Sequence record: NC_007023.1
From: Escherichia phage RB43
DNA: 64,000 bases
Reading direction: 5' to 3' (one strand)
Position numbers and translations under genes: made by a program. Below are positions 2,326 to 63,895 of the stretch, one piece after another; position 1 is the first letter of the stretch, and each line of letters begins with the position of its first letter. The notes beneath the pieces are model-generated. The model saw only the letters and a program-made list of their open reading frames with translations. It searched no databases and was not told the origin of the DNA.

Positions 2326-2708
2326 TTTGCAATAATGCCGAAAGCAAGCAAACCACCGCGATGATCGTTATCCGCACTCTCCTGGAAGAAAAAGTATTCA
2401 TCACCGGAAATACTGGTAACACGAACACCTTCTTTCAGATACGGTAACAGATACAGAGGGATCAGCATGATTTCTAAATCATCGCTCCATTTACGGAACC
2501 CCAGATTTTTCATTTCTTCCATCGTCAGGTCATTAGGATCGACGGGTTCAAAATCAGGTGATGCCTGGAGTCGTCCAGGAAGTGAACGTATATGGTTGAG
2601 AGCAAATTCTTCTCCCCATGACTGATACGCGATAGGTTCAGCGGCACGGGTTGCAGTAGCCAACAGAATCATTTGGCAGATTTGGAAAGTCGTTGCTTTT
2701 GTTTTCAT
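2322..2708 (-). CDS. hypothetical protein with hydrophobic N-terminus (128 aa)
   Basis: N-terminus MKTKATTFQICQMILLATATRAA resembles a signal peptide. Confidence 0.45.
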   Translation of the reverse strand: MKTKATTFQICQMILLATATRAAEPIAYQSWGEEFALNHIRSLPGRLQASPDFEPVDPNDLTMEEMKNLGFRKWSDDLEIMLIPLYLLPYLKEGVRVTSISGDEYFFFQESADNDHRGGLLAFGIIAK

Positions 2709-3118
2709 GATGTATATCCCACAAGTTTAGTAAGGAGGTGTCCCATAGTCTTACGCGCATGATCGCGGATTTCGCTATAAGGAACATATTTGAAACCGTC
2801 CATTTCTGTAATGGTTCGACCGTTCTTCACGAACGTTGACGCACAGAAACATTTATCGGCTTCGGGGTAATTATCGCCTTTGTAGATGAACAATGCAAGT
2901 TTTTTCTTACTTGTATAATCCAAAACACCCAGGCTGATCAGTTGGTCAGGACGCACTTCGAAACCAGTTTCTTCGAAGCATTCGCGAATAGCAGCATCAT
3001 ATGGGCTTTCACCCTTTTCTACATGCCCCTTTGGAATATCCCAGTGGGGCGTTTCGGTAGCGTGACCCATTAGAATACTGCCGTTATTCAGAAAGAGAAT
3101 ACCAGCAGATAATTCCAT
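2705..3118 (-). CDS. nudE: NUDIX hydrolase
   Basis: Nudix box GHVEKGESPYDAAIRECFEETG (Gx5Ex7REUxEExGU). Confidence 0.8.
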   Translation of the reverse strand: MELSAGILFLNNGSILMGHATETPHWDIPKGHVEKGESPYDAAIRECFEETGFEVRPDQLISLGVLDYTSKKKLALFIYKGDNYPEADKCFCASTFVKNGRTITEMDGFKYVPYSEIRDHARKTMGHLLTKLVGYTS

Positions 3119-6422: not shown

Positions 6423-7085
6423 TTAAAAGTTAATTACACTAAGCACGTTAGCTTTCAATTCACTAAGCGTACCATTATTTAGGATGATAATATCAGTTGG
6501 TTGAGGGTTCAAACCTTTCTCAGTTGAATGGCTGTCATCCTCTCCGGTTTTCTCGTTCGATGAATACGAACTTAGGCCCCGAACTTGCTCAGGTATTTTA
6601 TATTCATGTTTTTGTCGAACATCCGTAATGATAAAGTTATCTTTATCGGAACGCAACATTTTCTTCAATACAATATCGACCCATACAATATCGTTATGAT
6701 TACACACGATATCAGTACCGAAAACCTGCATCAGTCGGCGTATTGTCCAGGGCTGTGTATTGGTTCTACAGATTTCATATACTGCTGTATCAACAGCACC
6801 AAGCCAATAGCCCCGCTTCTCTAACCGCTTAACCCCGAAGTCGAAGACTTTTAGTGCATCTTCGTTAGACATCAACAGGGGCGCTTCTCGATCGCCTGTA
6901 TAGAATGGGTTGGTTTTAGTCAGTTCACGCAAGTAACGGTTTCCCGATTCCTTCATCCCGTCCGACAGAATACTTTTGATCTCGTCAGCGAGCGCGAACG
7001 CTTCGACGTTTTGATAGTCATCTAAAACGAACTGGGTAGCGGTGTCTTTACCCGTTCGTTTTTTACCACAAATGCAATAAATCAT
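6423..7085 (-). CDS. 1: deoxynucleoside monophosphate kinase
   Basis: P-loop GKKRTGKDT; RRLMQVFGTD, ITDVRQKHE, NNGTLSEL match T4 gp1. Confidence 0.85.
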   Translation of the reverse strand: MIYCICGKKRTGKDTATQFVLDDYQNVEAFALADEIKSILSDGMKESGNRYLRELTKTNPFYTGDREAPLLMSNEDALKVFDFGVKRLEKRGYWLGAVDTAVYEICRTNTQPWTIRRLMQVFGTDIVCNHNDIVWVDIVLKKMLRSDKDNFIITDVRQKHEYKIPEQVRGLSSYSSNEKTGEDDSHSTEKGLNPQPTDIIILNNGTLSELKANVLSVINF

Positions 7086-14354: not shown

Positions 14355-16269
14355 ATGGCTACCGTAAAGAAACAAATTAATCAGATCCCCGATATTTTTG
14401 TCGGGGCTACTTTTGATGAAATCAAATCGGAGTTTGATTAACTGGCTCCGAGGTCAGGACGAATTCAAAGATTATGATTTCTCTGGCTCGCGTATGAACG
14501 TGCTTGTTGACCTGCTGTCTTACGCGACATTGTATATTCAACAGATGGGTAACAGTGCTCTATTCGAATCATTTATTCGAACTGCGGCGCTTCGTAGTTC
14601 TGTTGTGCAACATGCTCAGGATTTTGGTTATATGCCGGATTCCCGTACTGCTGCAAACACTTCGATTCTGATTACAGCAAATAACCCACTGAACCCAACT
14701 TCAATTCGTATTCCTCGTGGTACGAAATTCATTGGTACAGTAAAAGATACGAACAGCTTCCCGTTTGTTGTGTCTGATGACGTTGTAATCGTTCGTGATA
14801 AAGATAACAACTATGTGTCGATGCTGAATATCGTACAGGGGCGTTTGGTTCGTACCGAAGTAATCTATGATGGTTCTACTATCCTGATCCGAGATCCGAA
14901 CATTGACCGTAGTCAGGTTCGAGTGACGATCAACGGCGCACAGTGGGACGATTGGACAAACGAAAGTATCGTTAACGCAACGGGCGCAAGTACCGTTTTC
15001 TATATGCGTGAAACGGTAGACGGACATACAGAGGTTTATTTCGGTGAAGGTGAGACAAGTCAACAGGTCGCGGGTGGTGCTCTTACCGCTGACTATATCG
15101 GGGGCTTGAAACCTGCAAACGGTTCTGTCGTTGTTATTGAATACATTTCAACCAACGGCGAAGAAGCAAACGGTGCTGAAAACTTTGTTTACGTGGATAC
15201 GTTGACAAACATCAGCATTACAAGTATTGTTGAGAACCCGACCAACTCTGCTGATTATGTCGGTGCTGATGGTGGTGGTGAACCGGAAGACATTGAACGA
15301 ATTCGAGAATTAGCCCCGATCATGCGTGAAACGCAGCGTCGTTGTGTTACTGCATCGGATTACGAATCATTCCTGTCGCATCGTTTCGGCTCTGTGATTC
15401 AGGCGGTTCAGTGCTTTACCGATAGTGAAAAACCTGGATATGCGTTCATCGCGGTTAAACCGAAATCAGGGTTGCGCCTAACCTCAGTACAGAAAGAGGA
15501 TATGCAAAACTATCTGGCTAAGTATAACCTTGCGACAATTACGCCGTCGATTCTCGACCCTAACTATCTGTATATCGTACAAAGCATTAAAGTCACGTAT
15601 GATATCAGTAAGTTAATCGAGTCAGAAGAATGGCTACGTGGTCAGGTTATCAATGAAATTGACAAGTATTACACTGATAACGTTGAAATTTTCAACAGAT
15701 CATTCAGTAAATCGAAGATGTTGACTTATGTCGATAACGCTGATGTGTCAATCATTGGTTCCTCTGCGACGATTAGCCTGTTGCGTGAACTGGATAACTA
15801 TTACAGTGCGCCGATGTCTGGTATTCACTTCTTAAACCAGGTTGCGTCAAGATCTGTTATTTCTAACGGGTTCAAATATACCAACGCAGATGATGATTCA
15901 TATGATGTGCGCTATGCGTCAACTGATATGGATACATCGACCGGACGTGCTAAGATTGTAATTGGCCCGTTTAAAGATGGTGATATTGCGATAACTCCGT
16001 ATGCTGGTAACGATTTTGATAAATACCCAGGGGTGACAGACAGAACGAAATACTATGAGGTTGGCTATATCGAACATTATAGCGATTTCATCAGCTTCGA
16101 TCTGGGTGTGCTTAACGTCCCAGCAGAACGCTTTAGCGCTGCATATATCGAACTGACTGCAAAACCATTGGAAGAAACCATTTTTACTCGTGATGGTTCT
16201 CTGATTGTATTTGAAAATGACCTTCGTCCTCAGTATACCACGCTGACGATGAATCCAATCAGTCAATAA
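14355..16269 (+). CDS. 6: baseplate wedge protein gp6 (needs +1 frame change near codon 26)
   Basis: ATG 14355 with AGAGGGG SD encodes MATVKKQINQIPDIFVGATFDEIK (matches T4 gp6 N-terminus) then TAA at 14439; rest of gp6 is in +1 frame from about 14434. Confidence 0.85.
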
Positions 16270-19431: not shown

Positions 19432-20423
19432 TGGCTCAACAAAACATCTACCGTGCGGTAGTAACAGGAAAATTCCGCACGGAAAACATGATGAACTTTC
19501 GTGATATGATCGGGGATGACCCCGATCACAACTCGATTTATATGTCAATCGGGAGAACTGAACAATGGGCTGATAACGAATCAGATCCTGAATTCGCTCC
19601 CCCGTATCCAAACGATGATACAGATGGTATTGTTGATATGTGGACGCATATGATCGGGGCGACAAAAGTTCCTGGCGAAATGATTGATGCAATCGTTCCG
19701 CGTAAAGATTGGGGCGATACTCGCTATCCAAACCCTAAAATATTCTATGTGAATGATATCGTGGTTGTCAACTCCGCACCTTACAACCGTACTGACTACG
19801 GGAAAGGATGGATGATTTACCGCGTTGTAGACGTTCCTGATATTGGTTCTTGTTCTATTTCCAGTATCACAGGTAAAGTCGAATGTGTGCGCATTGGTGG
19901 TATCTGGACACCGACCCATGAATCTGTTGAACCTCCACGCGGAGAAGCAAACGGAATTGATATGGGCGACGGGTACAAGTGGGAATATCTTTATACGATC
20001 CCGCCTGATGTCGTTATCAACCGATGCACAAACGAACATATCGTTGTTCCGTTCCCTGATGAACTGGAAGAAGATCCGGTACGCTGGGGTTATGACAACG
20101 TGATCAAATGGTATCCAGATATGTATGATCTGGTGTTCCGTATGAAAGTTCATTCAATGCGATTCCGTGCGTATATGGATTCTCTATTTTTCCCGCAAGC
20201 CTCGCTACCTGGCAACCGTGGATTCCGTCAAATCAGCGTGATTGTTAACCCGCTGTTGAAAAAGGCGCAACCAACAGACCCAGAAGTGAAAGCAACCGGA
20301 CAATTCTATACAAAGGATCAATTCGAACTGGATTCTGGACAGATGATCTATATGGAAAACAGACAACCGATTATTCGATCCCCAGATCAGACCGAAGAAG
20401 TCAGTATTATTTTCGAATTCTAA
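19431..20423 (+). CDS. 8: baseplate wedge protein gp8
   Basis: Extensive match to T4 gp8 (YRAVVTGKFRTE..., IVPRKDWGDTRYP, GYKWEYL, MIYMENRQPII). Confidence 0.9.
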   Translation: MAQQNIYRAVVTGKFRTENMMNFRDMIGDDPDHNSIYMSIGRTEQWADNESDPEFAPPYPNDDTDGIVDMWTHMIGATKVPGEMIDAIVPRKDWGDTRYPNPKIFYVNDIVVVNSAPYNRTDYGKGWMIYRVVDVPDIGSCSISSITGKVECVRIGGIWTPTHESVEPPRGEANGIDMGDGYKWEYLYTIPPDVVINRCTNEHIVVPFPDELEEDPVRWGYDNVIKWYPDMYDLVFRMKVHSMRFRAYMDSLFFPQASLPGNRGFRQISVIVNPLLKKAQPTDPEVKATGQFYTKDQFELDSGQMIYMENRQPIIRSPDQTEEVSIIFEF

Positions 20424-29189: not shown

Positions 29190-29261
29190 ATACAAATAGG
29201 GGAAACCCTATATATGTTGGGGTGTATGGTGAAAACCTGCACCCGATTCAAAGAGGATCTT

Positions 29262-29876
29262 ATGATATACACAAAACTTAAAGAATGGTTGCCTCATGAT
29301 CTATACGTTGAGTATGTTGATATCATAACGGCTTCACCAAAAACAGAATACACAGAAAAACATCATATATTACCACGATCGCTATTTCCTGAATTTGAAA
29401 ACGACCCAGACAACTTAGTAGAACTTGATGTGATGAAGCATTTGATGGCTCATAGGACATTAGCAAAAACCAATGACCATAAAATGATTCTCGCGTTTTT
29501 CATGATGTTCACCTACGAACATAAACGTTATTCTACATTGTCAGAACAGGAACAACAATTTATTCTTGAAGAAAAGACAAAAGCCCGTGAAGCAATGCGT
29601 GTTGTTAAAAAAGAACAGATGAAAGGTAAATATGATGGTGAAAACAACCCATTTTACGGAAAACGACATACTGATGAATTTAAGAAAATGATGGGTTCTG
29701 TGCATAAAGGTAAGAAGTTATCACCAGAACATTTAGCAAATCTCGTTGCCGCACACAAAGGCAAAAAACGAGAAAAAGTAAAATGCCCCCATTGTGGGAT
29801 AATGTGCGCCGCTAATACAGCAAAGCGCTGGCACTTCGATAACTGTAAGTCTGGACTTGTCCAGCAGGGGGATTAG
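29262..29876 (+). CDS. free-standing HNH homing endonuclease (NUMOD3-type repeats)
   Basis: EKHHILPRS HNH core; NPFYGKRHTDEFKKMM and HKGKKLSPEH repeats; C-terminal CPHC; inserted between gp14 and gp15; ATG 29262 with AAGAGGA SD. Confidence 0.7.
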   Translation: MIYTKLKEWLPHDLYVEYVDIITASPKTEYTEKHHILPRSLFPEFENDPDNLVELDVMKHLMAHRTLAKTNDHKMILAFFMMFTYEHKRYSTLSEQEQQFILEEKTKAREAMRVVKKEQMKGKYDGENNPFYGKRHTDEFKKMMGSVHKGKKLSPEHLANLVAAHKGKKREKVKCPHCGIMCAANTAKRWHFDNCKSGLVQQGD

Positions 29877-30704: not shown

Positions 30705-33038
<2,334 letters not shown>

Positions 33039-33055: not shown

Positions 33056-35050
33056 ATGGCTTTACAATCTCCAGGTATTGAAACCAAAGAAACATCGGTA
33101 CAATCTACCGTTGTTCGAAATTCAACTGGTCGCGCTGCCATTGTTGGTAAATTTTCATGGGGGCCAGCTTATCAGATCCGTCAGATTTCTAATGAAGTCG
33201 AACTGGTAAACTATTTTGGTGCTCCAGACAACCTAACCGCTGACTATTTCATGAGTGCTGTTAACTTCTTGCAGTACGGTAATGATCTCCGTCTGGTTCG
33301 TGTTGTTGATAAAGATGCCGCAAAAAACGCAAGCGCAATTTTTAACCAGATTAAAACAACTATCGCATCACAGGGTTCTAACTATAACGTTGGCGACGTG
33401 ATCAAGGTAAAATATAGCAACACCGTAGTAGAAGAAAACGGTAAAGTAACTCAGGTTGACAGTAACGGTAAGATCCTTGCGGTAACTATCCCCAAGCGAA
33501 AAAAATCGTTGCTCGTGCTAAACAGATCGGTACTTACCCAGATATTTCTACTGGTTGGAACTACTGAAATTGTTTCTCAGTCTTCCGGTGTATCTGCGTC
33601 AATCACGATCGATGGTATCGAAAGCGATTCTGGGATCACTCTGTTGAACCTGGACATTGCAAAAGAAACCATTCAGGGAACTTCGTTCCAGACGCTGACC
33701 CAGAAATATCAGATCCCGTCTGTTGTGGCTCTGTATCCTGGTGAACTGGGTTCTACTGTACAGGTAGAGATCATTTCCAAAGCTGCTTACGACACTGGCG
33801 CTATGATTTCCGGCTATCCTTCTGGGATCTCCGTTAAAAACAGCGGTCGTTCTGTGATGACCTATGGTCCACAAACCGATAATCAGTACGCTTTTGTTGT
33901 GCGTCGTGGTGGTATTGTACAAGAATCTTTCATCGTGTCAACCGATAAAACCGATAAAGATATCTATGGCGTAAATATCTACATGGATGACTTTTTCGCG
34001 AACGGTGGTTCTCAGTACGTATTCGGTACTTCTATGAACTGGCCTAAAGGTTTCTCCGGTATTCTGGAATTTGGCGGCGGTCTGTCTTCAAACGACACCG
34101 TAGGCGCTGATGAACTGATGACGGGTTGGGATATGTTCGCAGACCGCGAAGCCTTACACGTTCCGCTGCTGATTGCAGGTGGCTGTGCTGGTGAAAGCGT
34201 GGAAATCGCTTCTACTGTTCAGAAACATGTTATTTCAATCGGTGATGAACGTCAAGACTGTACGGTTTTCGTATCGCCTCCGCGCTCTCTTCTGGTTAAT
34301 ATTCCGCTGGCAACTGCGGTTGATAACATCGTTGAATGGCGTACTGGTTATAAAATCAGTGGTGGTACTCCGGTAGACAATAACCTGAACGTAAGTTCAA
34401 GCTATGGCTTCCTGGATGGTAACTATAAATATCAGTATGATAAATACAATGACGTGAACCGTTGGGTTCCGCTGGCAGGTGATATCGCTGGCCTGTGTGT
34501 TTACACTGATAGCGTTGCTAACCCGTGGATGTCTCCGGCTGGTTATAACCGTGGTCAGATCCGTAACTGTATTAAACTGGCTATTGAACCGCGCACAGCA
34601 CACCGTGACGCGATGTATCAGGTTCAGATTAACCCGGTAACTGGTTTTGCAGGTGGCTCTGGTTTCGTTCTGTACGGTGATAAAACACTGACTAGCGTTC
34701 CAAGTCCGTTCGATCGCATAAACGTTCGTCGCTTGTTCAACATGATCAAGAAAGACATTGGCGATAATGCGAAATACAAACTGTTCGAAAACAACGACGA
34801 TTTCACCCGTGCTTCGTTCCGTATGGATACTGGTCAGTACATGACGAATATTCGTGCGCTGGGTGGTTGCTATGATTACCGTGTAATCTGCGACACCACG
34901 AACAACACACCAGACGTAATCGATCGTAACGAGTTTGTAGCGACTGTTTACGTGAAACCGCCTCGTTCTATCAACTACATCACTCTGAACTTCGTAGCAA
35001 CGTCTACAGGTGCGGATTTCGATGAATTGGTAGGCCCACAAGCCGTATAA
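33056..35050 (+). CDS. 18: tail sheath protein gp18 (about 22-codon segment out of frame relative to T4)
   Basis: Strong match to T4 gp18 throughout except codons at 33494-33562, where the alternative frame gives the conserved AKKIVARAKQIGTYPDISTGW. Confidence 0.9.
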   Translation: MALQSPGIETKETSVQSTVVRNSTGRAAIVGKFSWGPAYQIRQISNEVELVNYFGAPDNLTADYFMSAVNFLQYGNDLRLVRVVDKDAAKNASAIFNQIKTTIASQGSNYNVGDVIKVKYSNTVVEENGKVTQVDSNGKILAVTIPKRKKSLLVLNRSVLTQIFLLVGTTEIVSQSSGVSASITIDGIESDSGITLLNLDIAKETIQGTSFQTLTQKYQIPSVVALYPGELGSTVQVEIISKAAYDTGAMISGYPSGISVKNSGRSVMTYGPQTDNQYAFVVRRGGIVQESFIVSTDKTDKDIYGVNIYMDDFFANGGSQYVFGTSMNWPKGFSGILEFGGGLSSNDTVGADELMTGWDMFADREALHVPLLIAGGCAGESVEIASTVQKHVISIGDERQDCTVFVSPPRSLLVNIPLATAVDNIVEWRTGYKISGGTPVDNNLNVSSSYGFLDGNYKYQYDKYNDVNRWVPLAGDIAGLCVYTDSVANPWMSPAGYNRGQIRNCIKLAIEPRTAHRDAMYQVQINPVTGFAGGSGFVLYGDKTLTSVPSPFDRINVRRLFNMIKKDIGDNAKYKLFENNDDFTRASFRMDTGQYMTNIRALGGCYDYRVICDTTNNTPDVIDRNEFVATVYVKPPRSINYITLNFVATSTGADFDELVGPQAV

Positions 35051-35096: not shown

Positions 35097-35582
35097 ATGC
35101 TTACTGACATTTTACGTGCCTTTGAATCCGGCGATTTCGCACGTCCGAACTTGTTCGAAGTAGAGATCCCGTATCTGGGCAAAAATTTTAGATTCAAATG
35201 TAAAGCGGCAACCATGCCAGCGGCTACAGTTGAAAAAGTTCCCGTAGGCTACCAGAACCGCAAAATAAACGTTGCTGGCGACCGTACCTATGACGATTGG
35301 ACAATCACAATCTATAACGATGACGCGCATAATACGCGTGATGCCCTGGTAGCATGGTCAAACATGATGCACGGAATGGGTGATCAGATTAGTGGTGATA
35401 TTCCAGCGAACTACAAGAAAACCGCTACGGTTAAACAGAAAAACCGTAACGATGAAATTACCGCTGAACATACCATTCATGGCCTTTTCCCGACCAACGT
35501 TGGTGAAGTAACCCTTGATTGGGACAGCAACAACGAAATCTCAACCTTTGAGTGTACGTTTGCGCTGGATTGGTGGGAATAA
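35097..35582 (+). CDS. 19: tail tube protein gp19
   Basis: 161 aa; synteny after gp18. Confidence 0.9.
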   Translation: MLTDILRAFESGDFARPNLFEVEIPYLGKNFRFKCKAATMPAATVEKVPVGYQNRKINVAGDRTYDDWTITIYNDDAHNTRDALVAWSNMMHGMGDQISGDIPANYKKTATVKQKNRNDEITAEHTIHGLFPTNVGEVTLDWDSNNEISTFECTFALDWWE

Positions 35583-45375: not shown

Positions 45376-46296
45376 ATGAAAATTGATTACGAATTGGTAG
45401 AAGGGTTCCGTGCTCTGCCTACTAAAGAACAGAAAGGCGCACTGGCTGACTACGCTCAAAGCACCTTTGAAGTAAAATTGAACAAACAAAAATCATTCGA
45501 TAACATGCTGGCTGATCTGGAAGCTGCTGTACCAGCGGAAGAAGAAAAACCGGAACTGCTGATTGATTCCCCAGAATCCGCGATCGTTTCGTACACTGGT
45601 AGCGTTGCAATGGATGAACCTGTTGTTAACGCTCCGAACATTCCTGATGTTGTTGTCGATGTGTCGCAGGACTTTATGGATTACGTCAAAGACGTTGCGC
45701 CGGAAGTGGCTGATCAGATTAAATTAGTCCCTGATGTTGTTGTCGATGTGTCGCAGGACTTTATGGATTACGTCAAAGACGTTGCGCCGGAAGTGGCTGA
45801 TCAGATTAAATTAGTCCCTGATGTTGTTGTCGATGTGTCGCAGGACTTTATGGATTACGTCAAAGACGTTGCGCCGGAAGTGGCTGATCAGATTAAATTA
45901 GTCCCTGATGTTGTTGTCGATGTGTCGCAGGACTTTATGGATTACGTCAAAGACGTTGCGCCGGAAGTGGCTGATCAGATTAAATTAGTCCCTGATGTTG
46001 TAGAAGCGTCTGTAACCGCTTCTGACGAGTCCAAAGCTGATATGGCATGGTTGGACGGGTTTAGCCCTACAATCGTTCTGATGGGGCGTAGCGCTCGTTC
46101 TAACGGCTATTATACGTGTCCCTGGTGGATCTACGATTGGATTAAGAAAAATCCAGATTGGTACAAAGATCCTGACCAGTGTCCACACTACAGCGCACGG
46201 GATACCCTGAAATCGCTGGTGTACTACATCAAACGTGATGGTCAAGTTACTGTGCGTGAAACGCGCAACAGCAGTTTCGATACCTTCAAATTTTAG
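45376..46296 (+). CDS. hypothetical protein with 4 identical 29-aa repeats and C-terminal PWWIYD domain
   Basis: 306-aa ORF; repeat PDVVVDVSQDFMDYVKDVAPEVADQIKLV x4; C-terminal YYTCPWWIYDWIKKNPDWY. Confidence 0.6.
   Translation: MKIDYELVEGFRALPTKEQKGALADYAQSTFEVKLNKQKSFDNMLADLEAAVPAEEEKPELLIDSPESAIVSYTGSVAMDEPVVNAPNIPDVVVDVSQDFMDYVKDVAPEVADQIKLVPDVVVDVSQDFMDYVKDVAPEVADQIKLVPDVVVDVSQDFMDYVKDVAPEVADQIKLVPDVVVDVSQDFMDYVKDVAPEVADQIKLVPDVVEASVTASDESKADMAWLDGFSPTIVLMGRSARSNGYYTCPWWIYDWIKKNPDWYKDPDQCPHYSARDTLKSLVYYIKRDGQVTVRETRNSSFDTFKF
45643..45990 (+). repeat. perfect tandem repeat, 4 x 87 bp (plus 11-bp partial fifth unit)
   Basis: Units at 45643, 45730, 45817, 45904 identical by eye; in-frame inside CDS. 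Confidence 0.9.
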
Positions 46297-47345: not shown

Positions 47346-47855
47346 TCAATAATGGCTACTGAAAAATGGACTACGGTTCACCCTATCCCGTGGCGTAACA
47401 CCAGCTTTACCTATCTTCCGTGGTGGATCTATGATATCATCGTTGCTGCTAATACGGCAGGTGGAGATTGGCGTGATTACGCAGAAGAAAAATATGCGAA
47501 AGAATTCGTCACGCTGAAACAAGCATACATCGACTAGACCGATGTTGATTTCATCGAATCTCGCAACGGCTACCTGTACAAACTCAGTGATTTTACTCCG
47601 GCTGATCCGGTTGTTACTATCACCCCGAAAACTGCCCCTGCTGATTTTAAAGTAGGCGATCCTGACCTTGCTGCAACCGATCTGTTTACTATCGATCCGA
47701 GCGGTACGGCTATGACTCTGACTGTGGATTCCTCTGGTCATGCGTCGATCGTTGGCGGTAAACTCCATGCTATAAGCGCTGGTGATGTTGTTGTAACGGC
47801 GACCTCCGGTTCTGTTACTGCAAACCTGACTGTAAATGTTAAAGTTGCTCCATAA
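47346..47855 (+). CDS. late gene: PWWIYD N-domain plus Big_2-type Ig-like domain, interrupted by in-frame TAG (47535-47537)
   Basis: 61-codon ORF ends at TAG; same frame continues 106 codons with ...TVDSSGHASIVGGKLHAISAGDVVVTATSGSVTANLTVNV and no start codon of its own. Confidence 0.5.
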
Positions 47856-53684: not shown

Positions 53685-54257
53685 AACTGTTCTCGAAAAC
53701 GCAAAAACGGCTACCCTGATCGGTAGCCGTGAACCCCCCGAACGTATAGCAAACATCGCTATCAAGATCGGACGGCATTAAGTGATCGAGACATTTTAGC
53801 TTATTCTGGTGGTGCTCCTGGAATGGATAGCCATTTCTTGTTTGACTACGCACCAGAAAGACGGCGCATAATTCTCCCTGAAAACGGTTTTAACGGGCTT
53901 TACTCGAATGGTATGGATATCATCGACTATAACGAGTTAGACACGTACAAAGCCGCTGACGAAGCGAGAAAGGTAGCTGGGAACTTCGATTACCAAAATG
54001 AATGGACACAAAGGCGTTATGCGAGAAATGCAGTTCAGATATTGCGCGAAAATTTAGACAGCCCGACTGACTTCGTGTTATTTTGGGCTATCGAAAAGGA
54101 TTTTTGTGTCAAGGGCGGTACGGCTATCGCAACACGCCTTGCACGATTATACGGTGTTCCCAGTTTCAACCTGTGGAAAGAAAACGTATTGAATGATGTT
54201 TGTGATACTTTGGGGATTAATATCAAACCTCCAACTTTGGATTTTCTCTGGTGCTAA
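53674..54257 (+). pseudogene. DprA/SLOG-like (Rossmann) protein candidate; needs 1-nt frame change near C6 run 53734-53739
   Basis: ATG 53674 gives MNFKTVLENAKTATLIGSREPP... then TAA; adjacent frame continues ...DILAYSGGAPGMDSHFL... to 54257. Confidence 0.4.
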
Positions 54258-54323
54258 CTCCCGAACAATCACGTAATTACGAACGCCTCTCAGTTGAAGA
54301 GGCACTTAAAAAGGTTAAGAACA

Positions 54324-54527
54324 ATGGTAGAGATCAACGGAATCGGGGTGAACCCGAACGCATTAATTTCAAAGAACGATCCTCGTTGCGGTCGTAGTCC
54401 TACGCTGGCAGAACGTGCGCGTAAGCTGGTAGAGGAAACAAACGGCAAGATGTTTGAAACATGCCGTGAAGAAATCACCCGCAACATTCTAAGTTTTCCA
54501 ACAAAACAATCATACACGTTGATATGA
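54324..54527 (+). CDS. hypothetical protein (about 67 aa)
   Basis: Internal ATG with AAGG SD preferred over ORF-track start. Confidence 0.35.
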   Translation: MVEINGIGVNPNALISKNDPRCGRSPTLAERARKLVEETNGKMFETCREEITRNILSFPTKQSYTLI

Positions 54528-54745
54528 AACGTTTTGTTGGTACGACGATGGGGCAAGAATGCACCAAACGTGCGTTTGATATGATCGGGGAATGGCTGAC
54601 CGAAGAAGGTTTAACCTATGAAACCCAAGCGGTAAGAACGTCTGCCGCAATACAATATGCAATGAGTAACCGCCGTATTTCAGGAAACGCCCCTGTAACT
54701 GAAAGAACTGGGTATAGCGAATACACGTATTTCATCACCTGGTAA
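54524..54745 (+). CDS. hypothetical protein (73 aa)
   Basis: ORF with overlapping start/stop. Confidence 0.4.
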   Translation: MKRFVGTTMGQECTKRAFDMIGEWLTEEGLTYETQAVRTSAAIQYAMSNRRISGNAPVTERTGYSEYTYFITW

Positions 54746-54832
54746 AAAAGTTTGAAATAGTTGTTGACGGGAGTTCTGATTATGATAAGATAGCTCCCGT
54801 AGACAAGACAACTAACCCAGAAGGAAAACATC

Positions 54833-55090
54833 ATGGAAATCAAATTAATCCCTACTTGCGCTGGTTACTGCTTGGCACTGAACGGTGTAGCAAACAACGG
54901 CAAAGGCTTACGGGCTAACGTTGAAGCAATGCTGAATGAACTGGCGTTGCGGAGTGAACCTGGGATGCAGTATGAGTATGATGACGTTGCAACCAGCGTT
55001 AAAATCTCTAATCTGGTGATGAATGGTGTTGACTGTGCGGGTGGTGGGATTGCTACATCGACTATGCAGACAATCGGGTTTTCTTACTGA
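54833..55090 (+). CDS. hypothetical protein (85 aa)
   Basis: ORF with GAAGGAAAA SD. Confidence 0.4.
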   Translation: MEIKLIPTCAGYCLALNGVANNGKGLRANVEAMLNELALRSEPGMQYEYDDVATSVKISNLVMNGVDCAGGGIATSTMQTIGFSY

Positions 55091-55109
55091 CCAGCAACTA
55101 AGGAATGTT

Positions 55110-55520
55110 ATGAAAGATTATATTTCAGAAGCAGAAGCGCTTGAAGAAAGCGGTTTTCAAGTCACCATTGACGATGAAGAAGATGGTGGCTATGATGGCG
55201 GTGTTATGTGGGGGCTTAAACGTCCACAACGTAAAACCCCTGTTCAATATTCTGATGGTTCAGTAAGATACGAAACGGTTGTTAAAGAAGTAAACGGGCG
55301 CGTCATTACGTCCGAACGGCAGAAGGACATTAAACAATTGTATGATGTCGCAAAAGCCGCTAAAGTAGGAACCGAGATTGTTTGTCCGGTGTGCAAAGAG
55401 AAACACAAGAAGACGACCTATCATAAGGTGTTCTGCTCTAATGGCAAAAAATCCAGGAAAGACTGCAAGAGTAAATACTGGAACACGATTCATCCTGAAC
55501 GTTTGGATCGTATCTTTTAA
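55110..55520 (+). CDS. hypothetical protein with C-terminal Cys/His cluster (about 136 aa)
   Basis: ATG 55110 with AAGGA SD; CPVCKEKHKK...HKVFCSNGKKSRKDC. Confidence 0.45.
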   Translation: MKDYISEAEALEESGFQVTIDDEEDGGYDGGVMWGLKRPQRKTPVQYSDGSVRYETVVKEVNGRVITSERQKDIKQLYDVAKAAKVGTEIVCPVCKEKHKKTTYHKVFCSNGKKSRKDCKSKYWNTIHPERLDRIF

Positions 55521-55542
55521 TCAAAACGTGGAGTACGTTTAA

Positions 55543-56973
55543 ATGCAAACTTTTAATGAACTGAATAGCATCATCACCTCAACCGATTCCTACAAAGTGT
55601 CTCACTGGATGCAGTATCCGCAAGGCACTGATGCAGCGATGTTCTATATCGAATCTCGCGGTGGTAAATTTGATGAAGTAGTAACCGCTGGCGTTAACTA
55701 CGTTGCGCGGGTTCTCGCTGAACCAATTACCATGAAGCAGGTTGAGTTAGCGCGGGTACTTTACCGTAAACACTTCGGAAAAGAGATCTTTAACTACGAA
55801 GGGTGGAAAAAGATTGCTGAACTGGGTTACACCCCTGTAATTTTCCGTGCGATCCCAGAAGGTACGGTGTTCCGGGAAAAATGCCGTGCGACTGTGTACG
55901 CCGAAAACGAATTCTCGTGGCTGGCTGGGTGGCTGGAGACAATGACGATTCGCGGTATTTGGTATCCGTCATCTGTAGCAACGCTATCGCGTGAGTGTAA
56001 AAAGGTTCTGGCACACTACCTGGATATGACTTCTGACCTTACTGGCGAAGCATATAACATCACACTGGGTACACGTCTGCATGATTTTGGGGCGCGGGGC
56101 GCGACCTCTGCTGAATCTGCTGGCATTGGTGGGCTGGCACACCTTTATAACTTCATCGGCACTGATACCGTAGAAGGGATGATTATGGCAATCAGCCTCT
56201 TTGCGGATTATCAAACACTGTTTGATGAAGTTGAAAACGTAGAAGTAGCTGGGGTTTCCATCCCTGCTCGTGAGCATTCAACTACGATTTCCTACGGTAA
56301 AGAAAACGAAGACGAAGCATATAAAAACAGCATTGAAATGTTCGGTGATGGGTTCTACGCTTGCGTATACGATTCATGGGACTACAAAGCCGCTGTTGAC
56401 CGGATCGATAGTTATAAAGAGAAAATCATTGCATCTGGCGGTGTGTTGGTAGTGCGTCCAGACTCAGGGGATATGATAGACAACATCATGTACACCTTGC
56501 GCAAACTGGGGCAAATCTTCGGATATACTGTCAACTCCAAAGGGTACAAAGTTCTTCATAACTCTGTTCGTATCATCCAGGGTGACGAGATCCACGGGCC
56601 TGAAACAATCAACCGTGTATTAAGCTGGATGGAAGCGAACAAATGGTCGAGCGAAAACATTGCGTTCGGTATGGGTGGCGGTTTGCTGCAAGAAGTTACC
56701 CGCGATACCCAGAAATATGCTGAAAAACTTTGCGCTATCCGTATCAACGGTGTGTGGAAAGGCGTTTACAAATGCCCGAAAGGTTCGGAATGGAAAAAGA
56801 GCAAGAAAGGTTTATTGATGACCATCACTAACGGGATGGAATTCAAGACAATCGATTCTCTCGAAGAATCTATTCCTGCTGGGTGGTTTGATGCGATGGT
56901 AACTTATTATGACAATGGTTATCTGAACAAAACTGACACTTTAGGGGAAATTCGTGAGCGTAGCCGGATTTAA
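55543..56973 (+). CDS. nadV: nicotinamide phosphoribosyltransferase (NAMPT)
   Basis: TDSYKVSHW, GTRLHDFGARGATS, VVRPDSGD, IQGDEI, FGMGGGLLQ are NAMPT signatures. Confidence 0.85.
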   Translation: MQTFNELNSIITSTDSYKVSHWMQYPQGTDAAMFYIESRGGKFDEVVTAGVNYVARVLAEPITMKQVELARVLYRKHFGKEIFNYEGWKKIAELGYTPVIFRAIPEGTVFREKCRATVYAENEFSWLAGWLETMTIRGIWYPSSVATLSRECKKVLAHYLDMTSDLTGEAYNITLGTRLHDFGARGATSAESAGIGGLAHLYNFIGTDTVEGMIMAISLFADYQTLFDEVENVEVAGVSIPAREHSTTISYGKENEDEAYKNSIEMFGDGFYACVYDSWDYKAAVDRIDSYKEKIIASGGVLVVRPDSGDMIDNIMYTLRKLGQIFGYTVNSKGYKVLHNSVRIIQGDEIHGPETINRVLSWMEANKWSSENIAFGMGGGLLQEVTRDTQKYAEKLCAIRINGVWKGVYKCPKGSEWKKSKKGLLMTITNGMEFKTIDSLEESIPAGWFDAMVTYYDNGYLNKTDTLGEIRERSRI

Positions 56974-61847: not shown

Positions 61848-62325
61848 ATGTACTGGACAAAAGACAAATTCGTGTTTCGTGATGATGAAAGTTTTGGCAC
61901 GGTATACCGAAATTTAGCTTTGCGTGGTAGTGCTTTATCACCAAATCAACTATCGTCTGTTGTAATGCCGATAAAGGTTACTCACTGTGACCGTTTTGGT
62001 GTCAATGGTCTTGTTGATTCCGCTGGCACTTCCTGGTATTCGAACTGTTCTTATCTGTTAGACAACAACGATCGTGATCTCTTCAAGAAAGCTGTCCCAG
62101 TTGTTAAGAAGTCAAGAATCTGGATGTTCAAAACTTCTGGACTGTGCGCATCTTCTGGGACGAGTTTACGTTAATGGAAAACTGGTCACAAAACAGGGTG
62201 ATCTTGAAAAATATCTTCGTAAACAACGTGAAGTTGCGTTGAAAGAAACAGAAAAAACAGTCAATCGGTTGACCAAATCGTTAGCCGAAGAAACAAAAAA
62301 TCTGAAACTGTTACGGGGTGAATGA
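61848..62325 (+). CDS. hypothetical protein; two overlapping frames joinable at A4 run 62130-62133
   Basis: Frame 1 from ATG 61848 ends 62174; frame 2 (62074-62325, coiled-coil-like) overlaps. Confidence 0.3.
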
Positions 62326-62564
62326 TGTTTCCATTAAAAGCGCGTGTTCGCAACAAAACAGGAACACAGGAATGGATGGAATGTATACGGGAAACAAAAC
62401 ATTTCTACATTTCTCAGGCAGTGGACAACAACGGAAAGAACATCCGTTATAATAAAGTTGGTGGTAAACGTGTGGGTATGGATCAATATCTCCAGGTTGG
62501 TACTGTTCGGCCTGTCAACGTTCCATTTGATTTAAGAATTCCTAACGGTAAACCTGTGATATGA
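62322..62564 (+). CDS. hypothetical protein (80 aa)
   Basis: ORF with overlapping start/stop. Confidence 0.4.
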   Translation: MMFPLKARVRNKTGTQEWMECIRETKHFYISQAVDNNGKNIRYNKVGGKRVGMDQYLQVGTVRPVNVPFDLRIPNGKPVI

Positions 62565-63070
62565 TCGGGAAAATCCTTGATATCCTGTTTCCCTCCCGTG
62601 TACGTGAGCGGGAGAAACAACAACAATTCGACGACATGTTAGAAGAAGTTATGTTCAATTCTTTTATGATGTGGAAGAAAAAACGCGAAGACGAGAAGCA
62701 CCCAAACGCACAAATGGCAAAGGGTGTTTCTAAATGCGCGGTTGGTCGTTACTGGGTTGAAAAAGATTATATTGATCTGATAGGCGCTATAGCTCCTGGG
62801 GTAACGCTGGAAGACTTTTCCCGTGCAACGGGGCGTTCGTATACTGGCTGCATCAATCGTCTGCGTATGCTGTCTATAGTGGTGCGTAGCAAGAATTACG
62901 GATATCGTGATGTTATCCGTCCGGTGATTCCGGTAAGCCGATTAAAAATTCACACGGCTAACGGAAAAAGACTTGACCTGACGGATGAAATGTGTAGAAT
63001 AGGCTATATCAGAGAGGGGAAAGTGTTAAAAGCCCCTGAATGGCTCACTAAACAATTTGAAATAAGGTAA
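62561..63070 (+). CDS. hypothetical protein (169 aa)
   Basis: ORF. Confidence 0.5.
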   Translation: MIGKILDILFPSRVREREKQQQFDDMLEEVMFNSFMMWKKKREDEKHPNAQMAKGVSKCAVGRYWVEKDYIDLIGAIAPGVTLEDFSRATGRSYTGCINRLRMLSIVVRSKNYGYRDVIRPVIPVSRLKIHTANGKRLDLTDEMCRIGYIREGKVLKAPEWLTKQFEIR

Positions 63071-63074
63071 TCAC

Positions 63075-63667
63075 ATGATTAAGAAAATATTTTCGTTCCT
63101 CAACAACAAAGTAGAAACCGTCATCGAGCAAAACACCTCCCCAGAGGACGCATGGCGTAGCGCTGCACGTATCCTGATCAAGAGATTGACCGTCTGCAAC
63201 ATACCCGCATCACGGCTGCTCATGAGATCGCGAAACTAAGCAAAAAAGTTGTTGAGCACAAAGCTCTGCATGAAAGCAAAGAAGCAGAAATCAAAAAACT
63301 GCTGGCTGCTTCTCAGGAAGTTTCAAACAGTCATTACATTCTGGCACTGCAACACCGCAATATCTGGCAGGGGTTGAAAGAAAAGATCAATGAACTGGCA
63401 GAAATGAACAAACAGATCGATCTGTCTGTTGTTGAACTCGATAAAAAACTGGCTGATGTCAAAATGAACCTGGAAATTATCGAACTGAACAAACAGACTG
63501 AAAGCCTGGGTCTGACTGTGCCGGAAGATGTGATTGCAAGCGTGGGTCATACCTCCGTGAACGTCGATACTATCGTAACGAAGATTGATGTTCTGCTGGG
63601 TGGTAAGAACGCCGCCTCCGTGACTTCCGCTGATGTAAGTGCATACATCGAAGCCCTGAAAGCATAA
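63075..63667 (+). pseudogene. hypothetical coiled-coil protein; needs frame change between 63161 and 63237
   Basis: ATG 63075 frame stops at 63237; long downstream coiled-coil frame is open from 63161 with no ATG. Confidence 0.35.
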
Positions 63668-63672
63668 TGAGG

Positions 63673-63694
63673 AAGGGGCGCAAGCCCCTTTTTG
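63673..63694 (+). terminator. rho-independent terminator (GGGGCGCAAGCCCC plus T5)
   Basis: Same hairpin as after wac. Confidence 0.5.
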
Positions 63695-63697
63695 CCT

Positions 63698-63895
63698 ATG
63701 TATTATATTGAGCGTGATGAATTCGATAATTACTTTGTTGTTGATACTGTCCGTATGATTCATGAACCTCTGCCGTTGACTTGGTACTATTTGACCGAAT
63801 CTAAAAGGAAGAGATCGCGAATCAAGTTTACAGAGATGCGCTGTATGCGAAAACCGATATCAAAAGCGCGGCAATACAATCCAAATGTGAATTGA
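63698..63895 (+). CDS. hypothetical protein (about 65 aa)
   Basis: ORF; no clear SD. Confidence 0.3.
   Translation: MYYIERDEFDNYFVVDTVRMIHEPLPLTWYYLTESKRKRSRIKFTEMRCMRKPISKARQYNPNVN

What the first reader, a model, noticed from the sequence alone, without database searches (positions are those of the whole stretch)
33494..33562. Tail sheath gp18 has a 22-codon segment out of frame relative to T4
In the annotated frame this segment reads KRKKSLLVLNRSVLTQIFLLVG, which has no counterpart in T4. The alternative frame over the same nucleotides reads AKKIVARAKQIGTYPDISTGW, matching T4 AKIIAKAKEVGEYPTLGSNW. A 1-nt loss near 33494-33496 and a 1-nt gain near 33559 would produce this. Either paired sequencing errors or a true compensated frameshift in a surface-exposed sheath insertion domain.
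Basis: partly seen in the sequence, partly recalled or inferred. Interest (0 to 1): 0.5.

Follow-up and report, generated by a model that had tools for sequence, protein, structure and literature searches.

The report
Sequencing-error frameshift patch in RB43 gp18
The odd 22-amino-acid stretch in this phage's tail sheath protein comes from three extra single bases found only in this one database record, almost certainly sequencing errors, so it is a database-quality problem and not biology.

Summary
Codons 147-168 of the tail sheath gene (33056..35050, +) read KRKKSLLVLNRSVLTQIFLLVG, while another frame of the same bases reads ..KKIVARAKQIGTYPDISTGW, which matches T4 gp18 residues 148-168. Against every relative the window has three 1-nt gains: CCC->CCCC (33490-33493), A6->A7 (33499-33505) and GGACT->GGAACT (33558/9). 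The gene is therefore 1995 nt instead of 1992.

The window is the original 180,500-bp phage RB43 record (protein AAX78742.1/YP_239196.1). Two independent RB43-GVA genomes, GuL6, RB42 and all other cluster members listed carry the unshifted, invariant SEKIVARAKQIGTYPDISTGW. Codon usage inside the segment fits the native frame, not the annotated one.

Over the whole 64 kb the window differs from RB43-GVA by 23 one-base indels and 14 substitutions. All 23 indels are private to the window, nearly all lie in or beside short homopolymers, and they are strongly clustered. Three other clusters also restore the frame (nudix, dNMP kinase and NAPRTase-like genes).

Verdict: base-calling or finishing errors that escaped checking because the ORF stayed open. 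A true compensated frameshift is very unlikely (about 4%). Interest is low, apart from flagging a faulty reference record.

The parts
33056..35050 (+). Tail sheath gene 18 as it stands in this record: 1995 nt, 664 aa. It is identical to AAX78742.1/YP_239196.1 of phage RB43.
   Evidence: All 40 relatives listed span 1992 nt.
33490..33493 (+). First extra base: a C4 run where RB43-GVA (two records), GuL6 and RB42 have C3. The reading frame is shifted from here.
33499..33505 (+). Second extra base: an A7 run where all relatives have A6. The shift becomes +2.
33494..33559 (+). Out-of-frame stretch. It is annotated as KRKKSLLVLNRSVLTQIFLLVG (22 aa); the native reading in relatives is SEKIVARAKQIGTYPDISTGW (21 aa).
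33558..33559 (+). Third extra base: GGAACT where all relatives have GGACT. The frame is restored (net +3).

Best explanation
The 22-codon patch is an artefact of this particular database record, the original 2005-era RB43 genome of 180,500 bp. Three single bases were over-called within 66 nt, each duplicating the neighbouring base (CCC->CCCC, A6->A7, A->AA). Together they add exactly one codon, so the ORF stays open and the error was never flagged by ORF-based checking. The real phage protein almost certainly reads ...AVTIPSEKIVARAKQIGTYPDISTGWTTEIV..., as in its sister isolate and all relatives.

Shown: the three insertions; that they are private to this record; that the DNA's codon usage fits the native frame; and that the same record carries 20 more private 1-nt indels with the same character.

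Inferred: that these are base-calling or finishing errors rather than mutations, and that frame-preserving clusters survived because frame-breaking errors in recognisable genes were noticed and fixed.
For: 1. Identity of the record. The exact 664-aa protein is AAX78742.1/YP_239196.1 of RB43, seen on a single 180,500-bp contig and in no other assembly.

2. Relatives. Two independent RB43-GVA genomes are identical to the window across the whole gene except for these three bases. GuL6 (98.8%) and RB42 gene 18 (94.8%, a separate gene 18 record, AB062697) share the GVA state. All 14 other cluster members listed show an invariant SEKIVARAKQIGTYPDISTGW; 13 are 663 aa and one is 669 aa. No record among 50,697 phage records matches the 121-nt region better than 97.5%.

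3. Codon usage. The segment scores -10.2 bits in the annotated frame and +15.5 bits in the native frame.

4. Whole-window census against RB43-GVA: 23 one-nt indels and 14 substitutions in 64 kb. With GuL6 as outgroup, 23 of 23 indels (binomial p = 2e-7) and 12 of 13 polarisable substitutions are private to the window.

5. Mutation spectrum. The indel:substitution ratio is 23:12, against 111:2304 for natural GVA-GuL6 divergence (odds ratio 40, Fisher p = 7e-22).

6. Error-like signatures. Ten of 11 insertions duplicate an adjacent base. All six deletions at 53774-55886 lose a T from a G-T(n)-G context. The four deletions at 62105-63802 shorten A runs.

7. Clustering. Eight neighbouring pairs of indels lie within 66 nt of each other, where about 0.5 would be expected from an even spread. 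Three more frame-restoring clusters exist: 2999/3007 in the nudix gene, 6548/6575/6596 in the dNMP kinase gene, and 55868/55875/55886 in the NAPRTase-like gene.

8. History. RB43-GVA is a recent laboratory derivative of the same RB43 stock (PMC3157838). It shows only 1-2 private changes over the same 64 kb.
Against: No reads or traces are available, so a real mutation in the stock that was sequenced cannot be formally excluded. Enrichment of frame-restoring clusters (4 of 5) would also be expected under biological selection. Domain I of gp18 protrudes from the sheath and makes no inter-subunit contacts, so a damaged domain I might be tolerated.
Confidence: 0.93

Rival explanations
1. This is a true compensated (+1, +1, +1) frameshift allele carried by the RB43 stock that was sequenced. 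The virion sheath would then really carry 22 unrelated residues in the outward-facing domain I, tolerated because that domain makes no sheath-sheath contacts.
For: The ORF is intact. [quoted passage not shown] Triple same-sign frameshifts can restore function, as in the classical T4 rIIB genetics (Crick et al. 1961, from my own knowledge).
Against: It requires three independent insertions within 66 nt of an essential gene, with no other change in 1995 nt. The first insertion alone would truncate the protein. The allele is absent from the sister isolate and from all relatives. The native 21-aa segment is invariant among relatives down to about 90% nucleotide identity, so it is under constraint. 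The same record would also need about 20 further real 1-nt indels, including a frameshift after codon 25 of baseplate protein gp6, while the sister stock accumulated 1-2 changes. Domain I binds the baseplate and the retracted long tail fibres, so it is not functionless.
Confidence: 0.04
2. This is a finishing or editing artefact rather than pure base-calling noise. One or two miscalled bases broke the ORF, and a human finisher or assembly editor accepted a further ambiguous peak nearby because it reopened the frame.
For: Four of five indel clusters in the window net to a multiple of three. For clusters of unrelated errors the chance of that is about 0.05 (my estimate from a 1/3 chance per cluster).
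Against: The same enrichment follows from passive survivorship, in which only frame-breaking errors in recognisable genes get rechecked. There is no documentation of such editing, and many uncorrected frame-breaking indels remain in small ORFs. This is a sub-variant of the artefact explanation, not a biological rival.
Confidence: 0.03
3. Programmed translational recoding: ribosomes slip on the C4 and A7 runs and again at GGAAC, and so make the native protein from this mRNA.
For: An A7 run is a potentially slippery sequence (my own knowledge).
Against: It would need three separate -1 slips within 22 codons. Relatives need no recoding because their runs are one base shorter and in frame. There is no significant RNA structure (z = -0.92) and no Rfam family in the gene.
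Confidence: 0.003

Closest known systems
T4 gp18 tail sheath protein, domain I (residues 98-188; PDB 3FO8/3FOA/3J2M)
   Same: The window protein is collinear with T4 gp18 over residues 1-660 (E about 1e-265). The affected stretch corresponds to T4 148-168, inside the outward-protruding domain I.
   Different: In this record those 21 residues are replaced by 22 unrelated, largely hydrophobic residues because of the frame shift. In every other member of the RB43 group the stretch is conserved.
RB43-GVA gp18 (CCK74064.1 / CCL97681.1) and the Pseudotevenvirus tail sheath proteins (GuL6, RB42, Miller, RB16 and others)
   Same: RB43-GVA is 100% identical to the window at every nucleotide of the gene outside the three inserted bases.
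   Different: These genes are 1992 nt and 663 aa, against 1995 nt and 664 aa in the window. Their segment reads SEKIVARAKQIGTYPDISTGW.
Crick-Brenner triple (+++) frameshift combinations in T4 rIIB (1961; from my own knowledge)
   Same: Three +1 insertions close together restore the downstream frame and leave a short missense stretch between them.
   Different: Those were real, acridine-induced and genetically selected mutations in a tolerant region. Here the pattern is confined to one database record that carries many other indels of the same kind.
Homopolymer-length miscalls in draft or early shotgun genome records
   Same: Single-base gains and losses lie in or next to short runs, are spatially clustered, are private to one record, and show an indel:substitution ratio 40 times that of natural divergence.
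   Different: Nothing is different in kind. The only notable point is that the cluster happens to preserve the ORF of an essential, well-known gene in a RefSeq reference genome.

Membership tests
T4-type contractile tail sheath protein (gp18) | Full-length collinear sequence homology to T4 gp18 | tested here: met
   residues 1-660 match residues 1-656 of chains 3j2m and 9mkb, E about 1e-265.
T4-type contractile tail sheath protein (gp18) | Gene order: terminase large subunit (gp17), then sheath (gp18), then tail tube (gp19) | tested here: met
   One search lists ORFs 31203..33038, 33056..35050 and 35097..35582. The collinear GuL6 genes are annotated terminase large subunit, tail sheath and tail tube.
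Sequence-record artefact (base-calling or finishing error) | The variant is private to one record and absent from independent sequences of the same phage and of its relatives | tested here: met
Sequence-record artefact (base-calling or finishing error) | The same record shows an excess of similar single-base indels, polarised to that record, at homopolymers, clustered, and with an abnormal indel:substitution ratio | tested here: met
   23 of 23 indels are private to the window; odds ratio 40, p = 7e-22.
Sequence-record artefact (base-calling or finishing error) | Underlying reads or traces are of low quality or contradict the consensus at these positions | not testable with these tools
   No reads are available.
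True compensated frameshift mutation | The allele is reproducibly observed in independent sequencing of the stock or of its descendants | tested here: not met
   The RB43-GVA genomes (two records) lack it. The exact protein occurs on one contig only. The very stock that was sequenced could not be examined.
True compensated frameshift mutation | The background mutation spectrum of the lineage is compatible with natural evolution | tested here: not met
   Indels to substitutions are 23:12 in the window-private set, against 111:2304 for natural divergence.
Programmed ribosomal frameshifting | A slippery site plus stimulatory structure, conserved in relatives that need the shift | tested here: not met
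   Relatives are in frame without any shift. Fold z-score is -0.92. There is no Rfam match.

The most novel reading that the evidence does not exclude
The RB43 stock that was sequenced really carried a triple +1 compensated frameshift in gp18. If so, a viable T4-type phage tolerates replacement of 21 conserved residues in sheath domain I by 22 unrelated, hydrophobic residues. That would be a natural repeat of the Crick-Brenner '+++' experiment in an essential structural gene.
Probability: 0.04. Interest if true: 0.45.

Novelty: not a real feature. Interest (0 to 1): 0.08.

Why it matters
There is no biological novelty here. The practical value is for curation. The record appears to be the RefSeq reference genome of RB43 (protein YP_239196.1); that RB43 is the name-giving phage of the genus Pseudotevenvirus is from my own knowledge. 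In these 64 kb alone it carries at least 23 probable single-base errors.

- Four genes contain hidden missense patches: gp18, the dNMP kinase (gp1), the nudix hydrolase and the NAPRTase-like protein.
- About ten genes are truncated or split, including gp6 after codon 25.
- One gene has a spurious amber codon.

Anyone using this record for structural modelling of the sheath, for core-genome or selection analyses, or as a mapping reference would inherit these errors. RB43-GVA (HE858210) is the better reference.

Tried and rejected
1. Exact-pattern scans for the window-specific allele (ATCCCCAAGCGAAAAAAATCGTTGC) found nothing in viral contigs, metagenome contigs or genome contigs. My positive control, a 25-28-nt string shared by the window and its relatives, also found nothing in any of the three. 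Those collections evidently hold no close relative with this exact stretch, so the negatives are uninformative.

3. The original records NC_007023 and AY967407 are not in the annotated collections, so I could not see how the depositors annotated the broken genes.

4. Literature searches for a published statement about errors in the RB43 sequence found none. PMC3157838 gave only the history of the RB43-TLS and RB43-GVA stocks.

5. Programmed frameshifting and a structured RNA element were considered and rejected.

6. I did not run structure prediction of the shifted against the native protein. The corrected sequence is not admissible to that tool, and the result would not discriminate error from mutation.

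Full report
**What is in the sequence**

The window holds a 1995-nt ORF at 33056..35050 (+) that encodes a 664-aa protein. The protein is collinear with T4 gp18 tail sheath over its whole length: it matches residues 1-656 of PDB chains 3j2m and 9mkb with E about 1e-265. It sits between a terminase large-subunit ORF (31203..33038) and a tail-tube ORF (35097..35582). Those two names come from the collinear genes of phage GuL6.

In the ORF's frame, 33494-33559 reads KRKKSLLVLNRSVLTQIFLLVG. In the alignment to the closest solved sheath protein the match line is almost empty over exactly these residues, while both flanks are highly conserved. The frame that starts at 33493 reads QAKKIVARAKQIGTYPDISTGWNY and then a stop.

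**Is it more than chance?**

Three tests say yes.

- The 24-residue alternative-frame peptide, searched blind against all 177,635 distinct PDB sequences, returns T4-type gp18 chains as five of its six hits. The aligned position is the collinear one, T4 148-168 (AKIIAKAKEVGEYPTLGSNWT), with best E 0.05 for a 24-mer.
- The annotated-frame peptide returns nothing.
- A codon-usage log-odds score, trained on the window's other long ORFs, gives -10.2 bits for the annotated frame between the second and third breakpoints. In 600 windows of the same length elsewhere in the gene it never drops below +0.5 (mean +10.5, sd 2.8). The shifted frame scores +15.5, against a maximum of +5.1 for that frame elsewhere.

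So the DNA evolved to be read in the other frame.

**What exactly differs**

A megablast of the gene against 50,697 phage records finds 292 relatives. In all 40 records listed, the match spans 1992 nt, not 1995. I aligned the window with the two RB43-GVA genomes (HE981739, HE858210), with GuL6 (98.8% identical) and with the separate RB42 gene 18 record (AB062697, 94.8%).

The only differences between the window and RB43-GVA in the whole gene are three inserted bases:

| Position | Relatives | Window |
|---|---|---|
| 33490-33493 | CCC | CCCC |
| 33499-33505 | A6 | A7 |
| 33558/9 | GGACT | GGAACT |

The native reading is ...AVTIPSEKIVARAKQIGTYPDISTGWTTEIV.... The events are +1, +1, +1, for a net gain of one codon.

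**Which record this is**

The exact 664-aa sequence is AAX78742.1 / YP_239196.1, 'gp18 tail sheath monomer [Escherichia phage RB43]'. It is found on a single contig of 180,500 bp and in no other assembly. The other 14 cluster members listed all read SEKIVARAKQIGTYPDISTGW without a single substitution; 13 of them are 663 aa and one is 669 aa. No record matches the 121-nt region 33470-33590 better than 97.5%, which corresponds to the three gaps.

**The decisive context: a whole-window census**

I compared all 64 kb with the corresponding part of RB43-GVA (HE858210.2 94500-161000). Identity is 99.9%, with 37 differing columns: 23 one-base indels and 14 substitutions. There is also one tandem-repeat copy-number difference.

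- **Polarity.** With GuL6 as outgroup, all 23 indels and 12 of the 13 polarisable substitutions are private to the window. RB43-GVA has one private substitution, at 20377. The difference at 29807 has no GuL6 counterpart. The binomial p for 23 of 23 is 2e-7.
- **Spectrum.** The window-private indel:substitution ratio is 23:12. Natural divergence between GVA and GuL6 over the same region shows 111 gap events to 2304 mismatches. The odds ratio is 40 and Fisher p = 7e-22.
- **Signatures.** Ten of 11 insertions duplicate the adjacent base. All six deletions between 53774 and 55886 remove a T from a G-T(n)-G context. The four deletions between 62105 and 63802 shorten A runs.
- **Clustering.** Eight adjacent pairs of indels lie within 66 nt of each other. 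About 0.5 such pairs would be expected for 23 events spread evenly over 64 kb (my estimate).

Besides gp18, three more clusters restore the frame and leave a hidden missense patch:

| Window positions | Events | Gene | Native reading | Window reading |
|---|---|---|---|---|
| 2999 / 3007 | -A, +T | nudix hydrolase | AHI | SPY |
| 6548 / 6575 / 6596 | +T, +G, +T | dNMP kinase (gp1), minus strand | YLSKFGAKFVFIERE | IPEQVRGLSSYSSNEK |
| 55868 / 55875 / 55886 | -T, -T, -T | NAPRTase-like | VPVKNAV | FREKCR |

The remaining indels truly break frames:

- gp6 after codon 25 (14432);
- the last two residues of gp24 (42325);
- about eight small hypothetical ORFs.

**Interpretation**

According to PMC3157838, RB43-GVA is a laboratory derivative of the same RB43 stock, propagated separately for about 20 years. 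One branch shows 1-2 changes in 64 kb. The other shows 35, two thirds of them single-base indels at short runs, clustered, and including frameshifts in essential structural genes. That asymmetry is not a plausible mutational history. It is what base-calling errors in thinly covered stretches of an early shotgun assembly look like.

The gp18 patch is simply the member of this population that falls in a famous gene. It survived because three over-calls happen to add one codon and leave the ORF open. Four of the five multi-indel clusters are frame-neutral. This fits a filter in which frame-breaking errors in recognisable genes were noticed and fixed while frame-neutral ones were not. That step is an inference. 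Deliberate frame 'repair' during finishing is a possible variant that I cannot separate from it.

**Rivals**

- **A real compensated triple frameshift** cannot be formally excluded without reads. Domain I of gp18 (residues 98-188) protrudes outward and makes no sheath-sheath contacts, so damage might be tolerated. It does, however, bind the baseplate and the retracted long tail fibres (PMC3004832). This reading requires three independent insertions within 66 nt and no other change in 2 kb. It also requires a lethal first step, and it requires accepting the other 20 indels as real. I give it about 4%.
- **Programmed recoding** is rejected. Relatives are in frame without it, three slips would be needed, the region has no significant RNA structure (z = -0.92), and there is no Rfam hit.

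**Comparison with the known, and novelty**

The gene is an ordinary member of the T4-type sheath family. The anomaly belongs to the well-known class of homopolymer miscalls in database records. It formally resembles the Crick-Brenner '+++' combinations of T4 rIIB (my own knowledge), but here it is confined to one record. It is not a real biological feature.

Its value is curatorial. The record's RefSeq protein YP_239196.1 carries a wrong 22-residue stretch, and the genome carries at least 23 probable single-base errors in these 64 kb. RB43-GVA is the better reference.

**What led nowhere**

- Exact-pattern scans of the viral, metagenome and genome contig collections were uninformative, because even a pattern shared with relatives found nothing.
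- The original record is not in the annotated collections.
- No paper in the library comments on errors in the RB43 sequence.

Noticed in passing
window 6548, 6575, 6596 (gene 6423-7085, minus strand): A second '+1, +1, +1' cluster sits in the dNMP kinase (gp1) gene. Window-private insertions of T, G and T replace the native YLSKFGAKFVFIERE with IPEQVRGLSSYSSNEK and add one codon. GVA and GuL6 agree against the window.
   Followed up: yes
window 55868, 55875, 55886 (gene 55543-56973, +): A '-1, -1, -1' cluster sits in the NAPRTase-like gene. Three T's are lost from G-T(n)-G contexts within 18 nt, so VPVKNAV becomes FREKCR and one codon is lost. The change is private to the window.
   Followed up: yes
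window 2999 / 3007 (gene 2705-3118, minus strand): A compensated -A / +T pair, 8 nt apart, lies in the NudE-like nudix hydrolase gene and changes AHI to SPY. It is private to the window.
   Followed up: yes
window 14432 (gp6 region 14355-16269, +): A window-private +G shifts the baseplate wedge protein gp6 out of frame after codon 25. The mechanical ORF in the window therefore starts only at 14398 (TTG, 623 aa), against 637 aa in RB43-GVA.
   Followed up: partly
window 47537 (gene 47352-47855, +): A G in the window, where GVA and GuL6 have T, turns TAT into TAG (amber) at codon 62 of the Hoc-like capsid decoration gene. A second private substitution lies 28 nt upstream at 47509. This is probably another record error.
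   Followed up: partly
window 45643-46001 (ORF 45376..46296, +): A perfect 87-nt (29-codon) tandem repeat is present in 4.1 copies at 100% identity, inside the gene whose GuL6 homologue is annotated 'minor capsid protein, prohead protease inhibitor'. RB43-GVA has about 1.1 copies (219 aa against 306 aa). This is either a real copy-number expansion or an assembly artefact, and it remains unresolved.
   Followed up: partly
window 29807 (GVA CDS 124802..125395, corresponding to window 29214-29807): The window has TGC where RB43-GVA has the TGA stop codon of a 197-aa gene lying between gp14 and gp15. This gene has no counterpart in GuL6, so it may be a mobile insertion. The direction of the change could not be polarised.
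   Followed up: no
window 1055, 3395, 42325, 50893, 53774, 54518, 55041, 62105, 62129, 63179, 63802: Eleven further window-private single-base indels break or alter small hypothetical ORFs and change the last two residues of gp24. Deletions at 53774-55886 are all T's flanked by G. Deletions at 62105-63802 are all A-run contractions. This suggests region-specific and strand-specific base-calling artefacts.
   Followed up: partly
window 20377: This is the only difference where RB43-GVA, not the window, is the odd one out: GVA has A, while the window and GuL6 have G. It lies in the baseplate wedge gene corresponding to GVA CDS 115019..116011. It is a candidate genuine mutation of the GVA lineage.
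   Followed up: no
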